From Dimargaris cristalligena (Eukaryota), in the NCBI GenBank assembly GCA_003614675.1, contig ML002375.1, forward strand, positions 1 through 36,261: a DNA stretch of 36,261 nt, written 5' to 3'. The first letter of the stretch is position 1, and the number at the start of each line of letters is the position of its first letter. Below, piece by piece: positions 1 to 19,127 of this stretch. The translations under genes were made by a program, and so were the position numbers. The notes under the pieces were generated by a model. It did no database searches. It worked only from the letters and a program-made list of their open reading frames with translations, and had not been told where the DNA came from.

Positions 1-1114
1 AGAGAAAGGGAGAGAAGGTCCCAGAATATTGGATGACTAAGCAGAGGGAAAGGGAGGGGAGTTCCCAGACAGTAATATTAGTCATCATAAAGGATAGGTA
101 ATACTTGGGTAACCAAAAAATTTAATGTGAAATAATAGAAGGGAAAAAGGGAAAGGGAGAAAGCTATTTTTAACTGTACTTTGGATAGGGGTACAGCCTA
201 GTTAAGGGTATATAGGAAAATATCATATATTAATAGAAAAAATATTATATAAATAAAAATAGAGTAAAAATGACTATACTCATCAGGGGTATACTTCTGA
301 TAAGTACAAAAAATAGATAAAAAGTAATAATAGGTGAAAATATAGTAAGTTAACTGTACTTACTAGTCAGTACAAGGGGGAGTAAGTGTATATTGAGTTT
401 ATTAGGGTAAACTAAGGGGTAAGGACAAGCTAAGGCCTCTAACTAGTCCCAATGGGGCCTAGTTTTATATACATAGGGACAACTCTAGAGGAAGGTCCTA
501 AGGGAAGGATACTACTAAGACTATAGTATAACTAAGGGAGACTACCACCACTTAGAGGGAGGAGGTTAATCCTTCCCACGGGGCTTCCCATCCAAGTGAT
601 GGAGACCTGTGGGACAATGGTGTAGACCACCTAATCCCCCTGCTGGAGGAGGATGTCCCTACCCCAATATCACAAGAACAACACCTCATCTCAGAGGATT
701 AATACTACCCCACCCCATGTGGCTGACTATAGTTCTTTATCTTCTAAATAAATTATTATTACCTTTAATAATTTGATCTTATTATTTACTTATAACTGGC
801 CCTATTTGGTACTCACATTATTTCTTTATAGTTACTCAGCCCTACTTAGCCATCAAAGTTACAATAAGATAGATAATTAGGCTGACCAAATAGCTGCAAG
901 TATCCAAAAGACTCTGAGGGTAACTAGAAGAGTCTTCAGATCAGTACTCAAGTGATTAGTGTGAAGGGGTGGAGTCCAAAAGGGGAAGGGTTATATGATA
1001 TAGGATGACCCCATAGTACCAGGGGTGACTATGGAAAGGTTAATATAGTACTATACAGCCTAATATAGTCAGGTACTAAGGTGTCTGGATTAAGGTAGAT
1101 TAGATAGTCTGATA
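1..1114. mobile_element. Degenerate solo-LTR-like repeat, copy 1 (left end unresolved, probably outside the window), interrupted by a nested insertion
   Basis: ~356-526 and ~864-1114 align colinearly with ~18730-19127, including the shared end GGATTAAGGTAGATTAGATAGTCTGA(T/C)A. ATAAAGGATAGGTA occurs at both 87-100 and 18686-18699. I saw only one CpG in 1-1500, and there are no ORFs. Confidence 0.75.
527..863. mobile_element. Nested ~337-bp solo-LTR-like insertion
   Basis: The segment is absent from copy 2. Its ends are TATAAC (TGTAAC with one G>A) and GTTACA, an inverted pair of TG..CA type. It is flanked by ATAG / ATAA, and removing it plus 4 bp restores the spacing of copy 2. An AATAAA lies in the AT-rich 3' half. 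Confidence 0.6.
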
Positions 1115-2087
1115 TAGCTAATAGTATTTTGCATGGTAATATTTTTCTGGTAGTACCATTAAAGTCAATGTTACTCTAATTATTGTGATCATTAATATAT
1201 ATTAATAATAATCATACCTATTCTTCTCATCACCCACATATAGTGTGCTATGTTAAACCTAACTATCATTTTTGGTGGCCAATATTTTATTAGTATTTTA
1301 AAGTGGAGATTGAATGCTGATTATCAAGCAATAAGGCCAGCAAGTACAGCTGATGAAGGCCATTGAAATCAGGTGAATTATATGCATTCTATAGCCATAT
1401 ACAGTATAAATGTGTGCATTAGTACTATTTCTAGCCCACTATTCCCCATTGGCATGCCTTTGGATTTCTCTAAAGGGGCCAAGACCCACTAACACATTCT
1501 CGTTATTTTACTGTAAAACCCAATACCGTGACTATAGTGTGATACTATCATTCCATGTGTTATATACTGGCGAAGTGCGGCGCAACAGTGTGGGATTTAA
1601 AATGTAATATTTAGATGATAGCAACAATACCCCAGCTTGATCCGAAAATATCCAACCCTGCCAATGCATATTTTATTATTTCAATTGGTTGAATCTCCAC
1701 ACCTGACAGTGGCTGCAATCCTCATAAAATAGGTGACATTAGTGACCATATAATCCCAATTTTAAAGTATTACGGATGGCCAGGCATTTCTCATTTATTG
1801 AGACTTCTAGTTATTCGTTAAGTGCACTATAGTCAACTATACATTTATTCGTTTTAACTGAGGCCCAGACGAGGGTGCGAAAATTGAAAAATTGTAATAT
1901 ATACTATATAAAATTGATATACAAGAACTTTTGGGACGACTAGCGATAAAACCCAAACCAATGGTGATTAAGCTAGAGCCGCCTTGGACTTGCTCGTGGC
2001 ACCACTTCATACTCCGCCGCATTCAATGGGAGGGAGGGTGGTCATCCATAGATTTATTGAATTACCATGGCCCCGCGGAGGGCCAGG

Positions 2088-2363
2088 CTAAGCCGTGGCC
2101 CCACCACTCTTGGCGGCGATCTTGGCCTCATACGTGGTGATCTTGTCCTGAGTTTCTTGAACCTTAGTTAAGAGATCCTGCAATTCCAGCTGCGCATTTT
2201 TCAACAGAGATTCATCAGATCGGAAAACATCAAAAATACCCCTGCGTTGAATATTGGCCAGATGATTAGGGGATTCAGCGTTGGTTTCGGGTTGGGCAGA
2301 GGTGAGAGTGGCGGCCAGAACGGCAACAGTAGCCAGAGTAGCGACGGCAACGTTGAAGCGCAT
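2088..2363 (-). CDS. Small secreted prepro-protein, 91 aa: signal peptide, propeptide, RR site, helical mature part
   Basis: ATG at 2363 gives MRFNVAVATLATVAVLAATLTSA (signal-like), then ...SPNHLANIQRR/GIFDVFRSDESLLKNAQLELQDLLTKVQETQDKITTYEAKIAAKSGGATA. An upstream TATA box and a pyrimidine-rich leader are present. Confidence 0.75.
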   Translation of the reverse strand: MRFNVAVATLATVAVLAATLTSAQPETNAESPNHLANIQRRGIFDVFRSDESLLKNAQLELQDLLTKVQETQDKITTYEAKIAAKSGGATA

Positions 2364-2610
2364 GGTAAAGGAGTCGAGGGGAGGCGGGGGTAAGGGGGAG
2401 GGAGTTGATGTAGCGGACACGGGGTATATACTGTTAAGCGTACAACGACAGCAAGGAAATCGCAAATATTAAATTGACAGAGTGAAGTAATTTACCGACT
2501 GATCGAAAGAAACGCGTAGTATAACCACAAGCGGAGGCAGTGGGGAAGAGAGAGAGAGAGCGGAGAAGGATGTTGATGATGAGCTACTAAGGAGGGGGAA
2601 ATAAGTAGGG

Positions 2611-2620
2611 TATTTATACT
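2611..2620 (-). promoter_or_regulatory. Putative TATA box (AGTATAAATA) of the 91-aa secreted gene
   Basis: TATAAATA lies ~250 bp upstream of the ATG. The identical 10-mer lies upstream of the 31505-31918 gene. Confidence 0.5.
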
Positions 2621-17064: not shown

Positions 17065-17463
17065 ATGTCGTCCCACGAACTTGAAGAAGAAGAATACTAC
17101 ACGAAGTACAATCCTGCTAATGACCGGAACGTCTTCGATGCCCTAGCCCGTTCCCCCTATTTAGCGTGGACGAATTCGGCCGCCTGTCTCACCGCCGCCA
17201 CCCTAGCGGCCCGTAGAGTACCGGGGCTACCCGCCCCTGCTTACGCGTTTGGCTTCAGCGTCGCTTTTGGTCTAGCCGGTTACGCAACCTATCTGAAGGA
17301 CTACGAAAACGGTGGCGGTACGGCGACGGCCTGGACCTTATCATGGCTGCTTTTGCATGGTGCGAAAGCGGTACGGTCCCGGCAGTGGCAGTCGTTGGCG
17401 ATTATGGGTACCATTACGGCTAACGGACTGATTTATGGACGGAGGTACTTTGATGTGCTTTGA
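17065..17463 (+). CDS. AIM19: Aim19-family small mitochondrial membrane protein, 132 aa
   Basis: SPYLAW, GY....DYENGGGTATAW and C-terminal NGLIYG resemble the Aim19 family from recall. Several short hydrophobic helices. Confidence 0.75.
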   Translation: MSSHELEEEEYYTKYNPANDRNVFDALARSPYLAWTNSAACLTAATLAARRVPGLPAPAYAFGFSVAFGLAGYATYLKDYENGGGTATAWTLSWLLLHGAKAVRSRQWQSLAIMGTITANGLIYGRRYFDVL

Positions 17464-17739
17464 TTCCAGAACGAGTGGACCTGGCGAAACTACGTGCTCT
17501 ATGCATTCACAAAATTATTTAACCAGCTGGCAAATGGCTAATTTACAATAAACCCACCCACTGTTATGTTCAATAGTTTACACTTAATTATACCTACGTT
17601 TCCACTGTTAACGAGTTAGGATGATCATCATCTCAAGTAATCACTAATGGCAGTTTCACAATGCTATCCCACAAGGGGTAGTATAATCAATAAGATAGTA
17701 TATAATACCACCGTCCCCGGACCCTCTGATACCCTTACA

Positions 17740-17930
17740 ATCCATTCAAGCCTTTTGGCTTTGATCATGTGTAGTATCTGTTCTTTGTAGTTTGACGACT
17801 ACAACGGGGCCCTAGGCCCCATTATCGTCATTACTATTTTTGATCTCACTTGGGTTCGGGAAGTTCCTGCTTGCACACTTCCTACCCTCGGGTGTCCCTG
17901 ACGTTGCACTTACTGCCAGGTGACGCCCAC
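17740..17930 (+). ncRNA. U2: U2 spliceosomal snRNA
   Basis: GCCTTTTGGCT-TT-GATCA-T-GTGTAGTATCTGTTCTT, with branch-pairing GTAGTA at 17771-17776. Stem IIa TTGTAGT/ACTACAA, stem IIb GGGGCC/GGCCCC, and loop IIa TGACGA complementary to TCGTCA at 17825-17830 (IIc). Sm site ATTTTTG at 17836-17842, and 3' stem-loops with a TTGCAC loop. Confidence 0.96.
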
Positions 17931-18563
17931 CCCCTATTAAAAAGCAACCACCAAGTATTGTACTGCATAATTCAGTGTAAACTCCCAACACTTACTGAAT
18001 TGAAAATGCACTGCCTTAACATCTTCGGATTCATTTTCAATTCGGAAGATTTATTGCTGTCCATAACGTGCATTTTCAAACAGATTCAGTATCACCCCAA
18101 CTTAGTCGATACCTGTTTGTGTCTGTTTACTCACCTTCCAGCTAATGTTAGAACCCCAGTGGTTTCACCCATTTAATGCTTTCTAGCACCATGGTAATTT
18201 GTAGTCAAATTAACTATATCTAACCTCCTGTCTCTGTTGCCAATTCACTATGGTTTGCTATTAGTCTTACACTCACTTGTACTGTATATTTACACCAGAA
18301 ATTGAGTTCCTCTTTTGAGTATTAATTAGTGTATCTCAACCCCACTGATGGCAGGAAACCCCTCTGCCCTGTATCCTGTCCCTCCTGAGCTCCCCCCAAT
18401 CCCCCTGTATCTCCACTACCTTAAAGGCTATATATGTATCAGAGAATAAAAACCATCTGAGAGTCTATCCATTTCAAGACCCAATATATTCTGCCTACCT
18501 GCATTGAAGGAAAACCAGTAAATAGTTCATAATCAAGTATAAAATTTAAATATACTAGCTACT

Positions 18564-19127
18564 TGTCACCTGGGTTATTCACTCTTAGTCCATCAAGAGT
18601 CCCAGGGGTAGGCTTCTAATGGTCAGATGGGGCTTAGACTTAGCCAAGCAGGTCCTAGTATTAGGTGAGGGTATAATGCTAACTAATAAAGGATAGGTAC
18701 AGGTATATGCAAGGGACTTGCAGTGGGCACACTTTCTAGTCAGTATAAGGGGGAGTGAGTGTATATAGAGTTTATTGGGTAAACTAAGGGGTGGGAATAA
18801 GCTAAGGAATCTAACTGGTTCCAATAGGGCCTAGTTATATATATACAGGGATAACTCCAGAGGGAGGTCCTAAGGGGAGAATATTACTAAGGCTAGGATA
18901 TAGGTAAATAGACTAACCAGATAGTCACTAGTATCAGGAAAACTCTAACAGATTAGCACTTAAGTGATTTGTGAAAATAGCAAAGTCTAGGTGGAGGAGC
19001 AGTTATGTAATAAGGGATAATCCTATAGTACCAGGGGTGACCAGGGGAAGGCTAATACAGTTCTATAAAGACTAATAGGGTCAGATACCTAAGCCAGAGG
19101 GATTAAGGTAGATTAGATAGTCTGACA
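18564..19127. mobile_element. Solo-LTR-like element, copy 2 (~564 bp)
   Basis: It begins TGTCA and ends TGACA (terminal inverted repeat, TG..CA) and is homologous to 1-1114. It sits in a tract (18110-19720) where I saw no CpG. No target-site duplication is evident (CTACT vs TCAAA). Confidence 0.7.

What the first reader, a model, noticed from the sequence alone, without database searches (positions are those of the whole stretch)
1..19127. RIP-like CpA/TpG<->TpA hypermutation between two repeat copies in an apparently non-Dikarya fungus
Seen: aligning ~356-1114 with ~18730-19127, many differences fall in CpA/TpG<->TpA context and run in both directions. Examples are GTACAAG/GTATAAG, GAGTAAG/GAGTGAG, CTAACTAGT/CTAACTGGT, CAATGGGG/CAATAGGG, ACTCTAGAG/ACTCCAGAG, ACTCAAGT/ACTTAAGT, AATATAGT/AATACAGT and the terminal TGATA/TGACA. 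CpG is almost absent from both tracts, while neighbouring genes are CpG-rich. Known: CpA->TpA is the signature of repeat-induced point mutation in Pezizomycotina (RID/DIM-2 methyltransferases), whereas passive 5mCpG deamination gives TpG/CpA and stops there. Inference: a repeat-targeted C->T system acts on both CpG and CpA in a lineage where I know of no established RIP.
Basis: partly seen in the sequence, partly recalled or inferred. Interest (0 to 1): 0.8.

Follow-up and report, generated by a model that had tools for sequence, protein, structure and literature searches.

The report
RIP-like repeat decay, Dimargaritales fungus
Two old copies of a very abundant repeat in a zygomycete-type fungus have lost every CpG and differ mostly at CpA/TpA sites, which resembles the repeat-mutating defence of ascomycete moulds but cannot yet be told apart from ordinary decay of methylated repeats.

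Summary
Window 356-530 plus 908-1114 aligns with 18730-19127: 305 of 375 sites are identical, with 50 transitions and 20 transversions. All eight quoted examples are present. Both tracts lie in CpG-free stretches (1-1500 with one CpG; 18108-19722 with none), while the genes have CpG o/e of 0.7-1.1. His1 places the organism inside Dimargaritales (Kickxellomycotina), so it is non-Dikarya.

Public contigs of the same organism show that the repeat is high-copy (about 70-600 times single-copy depth). Only the high-copy segments are rich in TpA and poor in CpA/TpG. Low-copy CpG-poor DNA shows the classic TpG/CpA excess instead.

Of the cytosines followed by A, 25 of 38 differ between the copies. The figures are 12 of 47 for CpC and 6 of 63 for CpT. 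Polarity is unknown with two copies. A CpA-specific C-to-T term is needed only if C-to-T is at least as frequent per site as T-to-C. The ts:tv ratio is a modest 2.5. CpG loss predates the split of the two copies. In a roughly two-copy flank the recent differences are CpG-type (22 of 31).

Verdict: this is methylation-type decay of repeats, with a suggestive but unproven CpA-to-TpA component. RIP proper is not shown.

The parts
1..355 (.). Very high-copy repeat segment ('A'), CpG-free. It is unrelated to 18540-18735.
   Evidence: Summed contig depth at places 72-117 is 2.0e5-3.9e5 in X1 against 189.9 for single-copy DNA. There is no CpG and the composite RIP index (CRI) is +0.52. The local alignment to 18540-18735 scores 70.9 against shuffles of 64.9 +/- 5.6.
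356..530 (+). Repeat copy 1, left part ('B1a').
   Evidence: Aligns with 18731-18895 at 85.5%. No CpG, TA/AT 2.90, CRI +2.54.
531..907 (.). Extra 377 bp inside copy 1. Copy 2 and other family members lack it.
   Evidence: Contigs join 530 to 908, skipping 377 bases (2 contigs in X1, 3 in X2). Other contigs join 18895/18938 to 908 (table 5). One CpG, at 579; CRI +0.12.
908..1114 (+). Repeat copy 1, right part ('B1b'). It ends ...TGATA.
   Evidence: 990-1115 aligns with 19002-19128 at 79.5%. No CpG, CRI +0.71.
18564..19127 (+). Copy 2 with its upstream high-copy part: a 564-bp unit with TG...CA ends (TGTCA...TGACA), LTR-like. No target-site duplication was seen.
   Evidence: Loose ends of 21-40 contigs with low agreement (0.40-0.42) start just before 18564, which marks a family boundary (table 7). 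The ends were read. There is no CpG in 18564-19127. Depth is about 93-108 times single copy in bins 18010-19343.
18108..19722 (.). CpG-free zone around copy 2. It extends about 0.45 kb upstream and 0.6 kb downstream of the repeat unit.
   Evidence: It is the longest CpG-free gap of the window, 1616 bp.
1..1500 (.). CpG-free zone around copy 1, with a single CpG at 579.
1421..2742 (.). Flank of copy 1 that exists in a second, diverged version in the same organism. The differences are almost all at CpG.
   Evidence: 31 differences between the window and public contigs are listed here: 22 CpG-type (the window keeps the C in 20), 5 CpA-type, 2 CpT-type and 2 transversions. The 14,993-nt contig next door has 2 differences (table 8). 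At 2194-2352, X1 has both versions (depth 174.6 of 355.6, single copy = 189.9).
28183..29181 (-). His1 (ATP phosphoribosyltransferase), used to place the organism.
   Evidence: Pfam HisG and HisG_C. Best named hits are Tieghemiomyces parasiticus 74%, Dispira 71% and Dimargaris verticillata 68%.
32100..35500 (.). Internal control: CpG-poor DNA with a TpG/CpA excess and no TpA excess.
   Evidence: CpG o/e 0.15, CpA/TpG 1.20, TpA 0.94, CRI -0.52. None of the 10 ORFs scanned has a significant Pfam family. Its copy number was not measured.
23888..24003 (-). Member of a second, short repeat family (also at 30621-30707 and 35861-35976) that keeps CpGs. Used as a control.
   Evidence: The spectrum is 23 ts: 15 tv, and the closest pair has 1 variable of 9 CpA cytosines.

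Best explanation
The two tracts are old copies, each about 11% from their common ancestor, of a high-copy LTR-like repeat. They lie in CpG-free islands of a Dimargaritales genome.

The most likely cause of the pattern is cytosine methylation confined to repeats, spreading about 0.5-1.5 kb into their flanks, followed by deamination. CpG is by far the preferred target. It was exhausted in the family lineage before these two copies separated.

A weaker activity on CpA then slowly turns CpA/TpG into TpA in the most densely targeted, high-copy sequences. This step is inferred, not shown. Its result is a RIP-like composition without any need for Neurospora-type homology sensing.

Shown: the repeat pair, its copy number, the CpG-free islands, the composition contrast, the context counts and the taxon.

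Inferred: methylation itself, the direction of the CpA/TpA changes and the enzyme.
For: 1. CpG loss follows the repeats. CpG o/e against depth-derived copy number over 30 bins gives Spearman rho = -0.66, p = 8e-5. The CpG-free gaps enclose both copies.

2. A CpG-specific process is recent and strong next to the repeat. In 1421-2742, 22 of 31 listed differences between the window and a second version in the same organism are CpG-type. That is 22 of 104 CpG cytosines, against 5 of 181 CpA, 2 of 168 CpT and 0 of 183 CpC, with 2 transversions.

3. Low-copy CpG-poor DNA (1116-1560, 19128-20000, 32100-35500) has the classic TpG/CpA excess of 1.20-1.29.

4. The high-copy segments go further. CpA/TpG is 0.54-0.80, TpA 1.38-1.57 and GpC 0.12-0.65, while CpC and CpT are kept. 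This is what loss of C before a purine predicts.

5. Between the two copies, 25 of 38 CpA cytosines differ, against 12 of 47 CpC and 6 of 63 CpT (same result on the HSPs only). If C-to-T per site is 1, 2 or 3 times T-to-C, a CpA-specific term is favoured (LRT p = 0.022, 5.6e-4, 5e-5). CpA is then 5-6 times more mutable, 0.38-0.45 vs 0.06-0.08 per lineage.

6. Repeat-restricted 5mC is reported for another Kickxellomycotina species, Linderina pennispora (passage in PMC11258239).
Against: No methylation data and no DNMT gene could be examined.

The same paper says 5mC is scarce in Zoopagomycota overall (passage).

The direction of the CpA/TpA changes is unknown. The unconstrained fit explains the counts with T-to-C only and no CpA term. 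The direction-free comparison of YpA with YpC is flat, 25/118 vs 12/67, p = 0.70.

In the flank, the 5 CpA-type differences do not share the polarity of the CpG-type ones. The window keeps the C in 2 of 5 against 20 of 22, Fisher p = 0.03. The recent process therefore looks CpG-only.

37 TpA are shared by both copies against 23 variable, so much of the TpA richness is inherited from the source element.

The composite RIP index is noisy. Two single-copy coding bins reach +0.30 and +0.54.

Of the 7 places in the repeats where nearly all family depth differs from the window, only 1 (place 88) is a CpA-to-TpA change in the window copy. Two are A-to-G and 4 are transversions.
Confidence: 0.42

Rival explanations
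1. A true RIP-like defence: a system that senses repeated DNA by homology and deaminates C in CpA and CpG. It would act on this family in a lineage outside Dikarya.
For: RIP-type composition is found only in the high-copy segments (CRI +0.5 to +2.5) and not in low-copy CpG-poor DNA (-0.43 to -0.52). There is a CpA excess among variable cytosines. A roughly two-copy flank has 29 transitions to 2 transversions, concentrated in one of the two versions. Windows with a positive composite RIP index were reported in another Zoopagomycota order, Entomophthorales, with stated caveats (passages of PMC11105155).
Against: ts:tv is only 2.5 between the copies and 363:128 over the family's variable places in X1. 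Hundreds of copies persist. CpG loss predates the split. Polarity is unproven. The recent flank differences are CpG-type, not CpA-type. Masc1/RID is said to be documented only in Pezizomycotina (passage of PMC5751038). A kingdom-wide k-mer screen found repeat-enriched signatures only in Ascomycota (abstract and section 9 of PMC12543289). I could not tell whether that screen included any Dimargaritales genome.
Confidence: 0.2
2. There is no CpA-specific process. The element is intrinsically TpA-rich and was already CpG-free when these copies arose. The copies differ by ordinary substitutions that land on TpA simply because TpA is the commonest dinucleotide.
For: The direction-free rates are similar for YpA (21%) and YpC (18%). 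The unconstrained likelihood fit needs no CpA term. 37 TpA are shared. ts:tv is modest. The short control family also has about half of its transitions in YpA context, 11 of 23. The + strand shows a CpA vs TpG asymmetry shared by both copies (o/e 0.71-1.00 vs 0.25-0.77), which points to inherited composition.
Against: It requires T-to-C to outnumber C-to-T per site several-fold (fit: u about 0, v = 0.14). That runs against the AT-rich neutral DNA around it, which has GC 0.31-0.33 in the flanks. It does not explain why YpT sites are so stable (6 of 95). It also does not explain why three adjoining high-copy segments share the CpA-poor, TpA-rich, GpC-poor make-up while low-copy CpG-poor DNA has the opposite.
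Confidence: 0.28
3. Editing of cDNA by a cytidine deaminase during retrotransposition, which would leave strand-biased G-to-A changes carried into new copies.
For: The unit is LTR-like with TG...CA ends. TpG is more depleted than CpA on the + strand in both copies. The signature is largely inherited from the source lineage.
Against: The variable sites lie on both strands: 23 TA-vs-CA/TG differences, of which 14 are CA and 9 TG. The preference is for the 3' neighbour, unlike the AID/APOBEC enzymes as I recall them (no call). No retrotransposon gene was found beside either copy. The base skews do not fit a simple G-to-A drive (A>T and G>C on the same strand).
Confidence: 0.07

Closest known systems
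Repeat-induced point mutation (RIP) of Neurospora crassa and other Pezizomycotina (RID, DIM-2)
   Same: The differences lie in repeated DNA and concentrate at CpA/TpA. The repeats have high TpA/ApT, low (CpA+TpG)/(ApC+GpT) and a positive composite index. Neighbouring genes are untouched.
   Different: The organism is in Dimargaritales, not Pezizomycotina. ts:tv is 2.5 rather than nearly pure transitions. The units are short (0.4-0.56 kb) and survive in hundreds of copies. CpG is completely lost and was lost first. Polarity, a RID homologue and premeiotic timing were not tested.
Decay of 5mCpG in methylated transposons (vertebrates, plants, basidiomycetes). Repeat-restricted 5mC is reported in Linderina pennispora, Kickxellomycotina (passage, PMC11258239).
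   Same: CpG-free islands centre on repeats and spread into the flanks. Low-copy CpG-poor DNA has a TpG/CpA excess. CpG-type changes dominate the recent differences in the flank.
   Different: The high-copy segments are depleted, not enriched, in CpA/TpG and are enriched in TpA. CpG decay alone does not produce that.
Composite-RIP-index-positive windows in Entomophthorales, e.g. Zoophthora radicans 24.2% of windows (PMC11105155, passages)
   Same: It is a composition-based RIP-like signal in Zoopagomycota, with no RID orthologue established.
   Different: It concerns a different subphylum and relies on a genome-wide index only. Here there is also a pairwise context count and a copy-number contrast, but only one 36-kb window.
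CpG-biased 'RIP-like' hypermutation in basidiomycete transposons (Horns et al. 2012). I saw it only as an entry in reference lists; its content is recalled.
   Same: C-to-T changes in repeats are dominated by CpG, as in the flank differences here.
   Different: As I recall, a TpCpG trinucleotide preference was reported there. The 20 CpG changes here show no 5' preference by eye.

Membership tests
RIP (repeat-induced point mutation) | C-to-T transitions in duplicated DNA with a dinucleotide preference (CpA in Neurospora) | tested here: inconclusive
   CpA cytosines differ in 25/38, against 12/47 for CpC and 6/63 for CpT (HSP-only re-count). The excess depends on assuming that C-to-T is at least as frequent as T-to-C. 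The unconstrained fit needs no CpA term.
RIP (repeat-induced point mutation) | Polarity: the mutated copies carry T where the family consensus carries C | not testable with these tools
   Only two copies are in the window and no genome is held. Of the 7 near-fixed differences in the repeats, 1 is a CpA-to-TpA change in the window copy.
RIP (repeat-induced point mutation) | Near-exclusive transitions (hypermutation) | tested here: not met
   50 ts: 20 tv between the copies. Over the family's variable places, 363 ts: 128 tv in X1. The short control family has 23: 15, and the difference is not significant (p = 0.29).
RIP (repeat-induced point mutation) | The signature is confined to repeated DNA and absent from single-copy DNA | tested here: met
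   This holds at the level of composition. The high-copy segments have CRI +0.52 to +2.54. Low-copy CpG-poor DNA has -0.43 to -0.52 and the gene blocks -0.23. Caveat: two single-copy bins reach +0.30 and +0.54.
RIP (repeat-induced point mutation) | A RID/Masc1-type C5-methyltransferase homologue in the genome | not testable with these tools
   No genome or proteome of the organism is held, and no eukaryotic DNMT query was available from any tool. In the literature, Masc1/RID is documented only in Pezizomycotina (passage, PMC5751038).
RIP (repeat-induced point mutation) | Acts premeiotically on duplications recognised by homology | not testable with these tools
   This needs crosses or pedigree sequencing.
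5mC-driven CpG decay of repeats | Local CpG depletion centred on repeats | tested here: met
   CpG o/e is 0.00-0.04 in the repeats against 0.7-1.05 in genes. rho = -0.66 with copy number.
5mC-driven CpG decay of repeats | Reciprocal excess of TpG/CpA | tested here: inconclusive
   It is met in low-copy CpG-poor DNA (1.20-1.29) and not met in the high-copy family (0.54-0.80).
5mC-driven CpG decay of repeats | CpG transitions dominate recent divergence | tested here: met
   22 of the 31 listed differences in 1421-2742 are CpG-type.
5mC-driven CpG decay of repeats | 5mC present on the repeats, and DNMT1/DNMT5-type enzymes encoded | not testable with these tools
   No methylation data and no proteome were available.

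The most novel reading that the evidence does not exclude
Dimargaritales, an early-diverging order of Kickxellomycotina, may possess a repeat-directed cytosine-to-thymine mutator that hits C before a purine (CpG first, then CpA). That would be a RIP-like genome defence outside Dikarya. It would run on an enzyme other than the Pezizomycotina RID, or on a deeply diverged relative of it.
Probability: 0.2. Interest if true: 0.8.

Novelty: new member of a known kind. Interest (0 to 1): 0.45.

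Why it matters
RIP is regarded as a Dikarya, essentially ascomycete, invention. A 2025 kingdom-wide screen found repeat-enriched mutation signatures only in Ascomycota (PMC12543289: abstract and section 9 read). The one claim for Zoopagomycota rests on a composition index, with caveats stated by its authors (PMC11105155, passages).

A repeat family in Dimargaritales has lost all CpG. 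Its remaining CpA sites are the most variable, and only its high-copy parts carry the RIP-type composition. That makes it a concrete, cheaply testable lead. One family-wide polarised spectrum and one methylome would decide whether repeat-directed C-to-T mutagenesis, or non-CpG methylation, is older than Dikarya.

If the answer is no, the locus is still a clean example of repeat-centred CpG decay in an early-diverging fungus.

Tried and rejected
1. Whole genome: none is held for this window. I therefore could not collect family copies, run a RIPCAL-type analysis or search for DNMT/RID genes.

2. Public contigs of two runs of the same organism were laid on 1-20000 at 80% likeness. This gave copy number, joints and totals by kind of change.

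3. A metagenome scan with a 17-nt word shared by both copies returned 15 loci. All match over 17-20 nt only and are chance hits.

4. Notes of this scan by genome, by words and by sequence returned nothing.

5. I asked whether 1-355 is related to the DNA upstream of copy 2. The alignment is no better than shuffles, 70.9 vs 64.9 +/- 5.6 with a maximum of 77.8, so the idea was rejected.

6. I looked for transposon genes in the CpG-poor block 32-35.7 kb. Of the 10 ORFs scanned, none has a Pfam family below E = 0.02 or near its cut-off.

7. No tandem repeats were found in 1-20000 and no tRNA in the window. The only Rfam match in the window is U2, so a tRNA-derived SINE origin is not indicated.

8. 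Bewick et al. 2019 on fungal DNMTs and methylomes is not held. What I say about it is recalled or second-hand. A search for 'Kickxellomycotina' with 'DNMT1' found 0 papers. One search failed on term length.

9. I compared by eye a few short stretches of other copies printed. Majority-rule polarity was mixed, and with possible parallel changes at hot sites it is unreliable. I did not use it.

10. I considered using a bacterial Dcm as a query to reach fungal DNMTs. I did not run it, because the best-120 list would be filled with bacterial enzymes.

Full report
**The observation**

The window holds two direct copies of a repeat. The repeat finder reports 405-535 vs 18777-18907 (82%) and 990-1076 vs 19002-19088 (79%). 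Self-blastn reports 358-523 vs 18731-18895 (85.5% over 166 nt) and 990-1115 vs 19002-19128 (79.5% over 127 nt).

A gapped alignment gives 375 aligned sites, of which 305 are identical. There are 50 transitions and 20 transversions, and K2P is 0.221, so each copy is about 11% from the common ancestor. Copy 1 carries 377 extra bases (531-907).

By the 3' neighbour of the C-bearing allele, the 50 transitions are 26 CpA, 16 CpC, 8 CpT and 0 CpG. The C is in copy 1 in 14 of the CpA cases and in copy 2 in 12.

CpG is absent from 356-530, 908-1115 and 18564-19127. The CpG-free gaps are 1-578, 580-1500 and 18108-19722. Per-kb CpG o/e is 0.68-1.05 across the gene block 2001-18000.

**The organism**

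The intron-free His1 ORF (28183-29181, minus strand; Pfam HisG and HisG_C) has its best named relatives in Tieghemiomyces parasiticus (74%), Dispira parvispora and D. simplex (71%) and Dimargaris verticillata (68%). Mortierellaceae follow at 58-59%.

In a 22-row maximum-likelihood tree the window protein falls inside a clade of exactly these four, with 100/100 support. Four Pezizomycotina rows form a separate 100/100 clade.

The organism is therefore a member of Dimargaritales (Kickxellomycotina).

**What the repeat is**

Five public runs of one coded organism hold 86-93% of the sampled words of 1-10000. I laid the contigs of two of them, from two studies, on 1-20000 at 80% likeness or more. 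3,368 pieces were laid for X1 and 3,007 for X2.

Summed depth relative to the 15-kb single-copy contig (189.9 in X1) is as follows:

| Bin | Depth relative to single copy |
|---|---|
| 1-667 | about 614x |
| 668-1334 | 67x |
| 18010-18676 | 108x |
| 18677-19343 | 93x |
| 19344-20000 | 8x |
| gene bins | 1.0-1.7x |

Depth summed over contigs is only a rough copy number, but the family is clearly abundant.

Joints show that other copies lack 531-907. Contigs join 530 to 908, and 18895/18938 to 908.

Many contigs diverge just before 18564. The unit around copy 2 is therefore 18564-19127: 564 bp, with ends TGTCA...TGACA, LTR-like. I saw no target-site duplication and no retrotransposon gene beside it.

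The segment 1-355 is another, even more abundant repeat that is not alignable to the DNA upstream of copy 2.

**Composition**

The high-copy segments (1-530, 908-1115, 18564-19127) have the following values:
- CpG 0.00
- CpA/TpG 0.54-0.80
- TpA 1.38-1.57
- GpC 0.12-0.65
- CpC 1.60-2.07
- CpT 1.43-1.51

Their composite RIP index is +0.71 to +1.00. The finer segments range from +0.52 to +2.54.

Loss of GpC is what loss of C before purines predicts, because a GpC survives only as RGCY.

Other CpG-poor DNA that is low-copy or of unmeasured copy number (1116-1560, 19128-20000, 32100-35500) has CpA/TpG 1.20-1.29, TpA 0.94-1.16 and an index of -0.43 to -0.52. That is plain CpG decay. The gene blocks are at -0.23.

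So two different end states coexist in one window, and the RIP-type one goes with the high-copy DNA.

There are caveats. The index is noisy: two single-copy coding bins reach +0.30 and +0.54. Its rank correlation with copy number over 30 bins is weak (rho 0.29, p = 0.12), whereas CpG o/e correlates well (rho -0.66, p = 8e-5).

**Context counts between the two copies**

These counts use sites whose 3' neighbour is the same in both copies, which sets aside possible CpG-derived TG/CA double changes. CC means both copies have C, CT means they differ, and TT means both have T.

| Context | CC | CT | TT |
|---|---|---|---|
| YpA | 13 | 25 | 80 |
| YpC | 35 | 12 | 20 |
| YpT | 57 | 6 | 32 |
| YpG | 0 | 0 | 13 |

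Counted per cytosine, CpA differs in 25/38 against 18/110 for CpC plus CpT (OR 9.8, p = 3e-8).

Counted without assuming direction, the rates are YpA 21%, YpC 18% and YpT 6%. YpA vs YpC is flat (p = 0.70) and the outlier is the stable YpT (p = 0.005).

The HSP-only re-count agrees: YpA 7/17/68, YpC 31/9/16, YpT 43/2/24.

I fitted a two-sequence likelihood model with free ancestral state frequencies. Unconstrained, its best fit has only T-to-C changes (v = 0.14, u about 0) and needs no CpA term. With C-to-T fixed at 1, 2 or 3 times T-to-C per site, a CpA-specific term is favoured (p = 0.022, 5.6e-4, 5e-5). CpA cytosines are then 5-6 times more mutable than the others.

The inference of a CpA-directed process thus rests on one assumption: that C-to-T is at least as common per site as T-to-C. 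The assumption is reasonable, because the neutral DNA around the repeats is AT-rich (GC 0.31-0.33) and GC-to-AT bias is the general rule (my knowledge, no call). It is not shown here.

**What argues against hypermutation on these two copies**

- ts:tv is 2.5. Over the family's variable places it is 363:128 in X1. The short CpG-retaining control family has 23:15, and the difference is not significant.
- Only 1 of the 70 mismatches is part of a TG/CA double difference, so the common ancestor of the copies was already CpG-free.
- 37 TpA are shared against 23 variable, of which 11 have TA in copy 1 and 12 in copy 2. Much of the TpA richness is therefore inherited, or arose in parallel.
- Among the 40 rows of the variant table that were shown, 7 lie in the repeats and have nearly all family depth differing from the window. 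One is a CpA-to-TpA change in the window copy, 2 are A-to-G and 4 are transversions.

**The recent process in the flank**

In 1421-2742 the contigs differ from the window at 31 listed places. The adjoining 14,993-nt contig differs at 2.

The 31 places break down as follows:
- 22 are CpG-type, and the window keeps the C in 20 of them.
- 5 are CpA-type, and the window keeps the C in 2.
- 2 are CpT-type.
- 2 are transversions.

Per available cytosine this is 22/104 for CpG, 5/181 for CpA, 2/168 for CpT and 0/183 for CpC. CpA against CpC plus CpT gives p = 0.048.

At 2194-2352, X1 holds both versions, each at about single-copy depth (174.6 of 355.6; single copy 189.9). This suggests a second locus rather than an allele. 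However, Dimargaritales are suspected to be non-haploid (passages), and contig depths are crude.

Either way, a strong, directional, CpG-specific loss is acting next to the repeat. The CpA-type differences do not share that direction (Fisher p = 0.03), so the current process looks CpG-only.

**Reading**

The best-supported account is repeat-centred cytosine methylation with deamination. CpG is lost first and completely, also in the flanks. In the densest, high-copy targets there is a slower loss of CpA that yields the RIP-type composition.

Repeat-restricted 5mC is reported for Linderina pennispora, another Kickxellomycotina species. The same paper calls 5mC scarce in Zoopagomycota overall (passages of PMC11258239).

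There are three rivals:
- A true homology-triggered RIP-like system.
- No CpA-specific process at all, with inherited composition.
- cDNA editing during retrotransposition.

I put these at 0.42, 0.20, 0.28 and 0.07 in that order, starting with the best-supported account.

**Comparison with what is known**

- RIP and its RID/Masc1 enzyme are described as confined to Pezizomycotina (passage of PMC5751038).
- Badet and Croll (2025) found repeat-enriched k-mer signatures only in Ascomycota (abstract and sections 8 and 9 read). 'Dimargaris' and 'Kickxello' do not occur in the main text, and I did not open the supplements.
- Stajich and co-workers reported windows with a positive composite RIP index in Entomophthorales, and methyltransferases with RID-like domain architecture, with explicit caveats (passages).

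The present locus fails the 'near-pure transitions' feature of RIP. It meets 'confined to repeats' at the level of composition. It is inconclusive on context preference. It could not be tested for polarity, enzyme or timing. It should not be filed as RIP. It works at least in part like methylation-driven repeat decay, and may work like a CpG-plus-CpA RIP.

**Verdict**

It is a worthwhile lead rather than a discovery. A family-wide polarised spectrum, a methylome and a DNMT/deaminase inventory of a Dimargaritales genome would settle it.

Noticed in passing
window 1421-2742: A second version of this flank exists in the same organism. It differs from the window at 31 listed places, of which 22 are CpG transitions (the window keeps the CpG in 20) and only 2 are transversions. 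The next 15 kb differ at 2 places. It may be a young duplicate or an allele in which one version is losing CpG fast. It overlaps the small ORF 2088-2468 (minus strand, 126 aa, no Pfam family).
   Followed up: partly
window 17740-17935 (+): A complete U2 spliceosomal snRNA gene (Rfam RF00004, 119 bits, model positions 1-192 of 192). It lies about 170 bp upstream of the CpG-free zone around copy 2. The depth of its bin is about 1.4 times single copy.
   Followed up: no
window 23888-24003 (-), 30621-30707 (+), 35861-35976 (+): A second, short (about 85-116 bp) repeat family with three copies at 77-80% identity. It keeps its CpGs and has 23 transitions to 15 transversions. It is possibly a MITE-like element in intergenic DNA.
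   Followed up: partly
window 32100-35500: A 3.4-kb non-coding block with CpG o/e 0.15 and a TpG/CpA excess (1.20), but no TpA excess and no recognisable protein domain. Its copy number was not measured because reads were laid only on 1-20000.
   Followed up: partly
window 531-907: A 377-bp insertion nested in repeat copy 1. It is itself moderately repeated: contig depth at place 768 is about 6 times single copy, and contigs skip 617-725. It is C-rich at its left end and has one CpG.
   Followed up: no
window 10380-11714 (+): A 444-aa open frame with no Pfam family at E <= 0.01. Other genes recognised are acetyl-CoA synthetase (4646-7198, minus strand), a coatomer epsilon fragment (14317-15057) and a weak Cu/Zn-SOD-like match below its cut-off (20511-21125, minus strand).
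   Followed up: no
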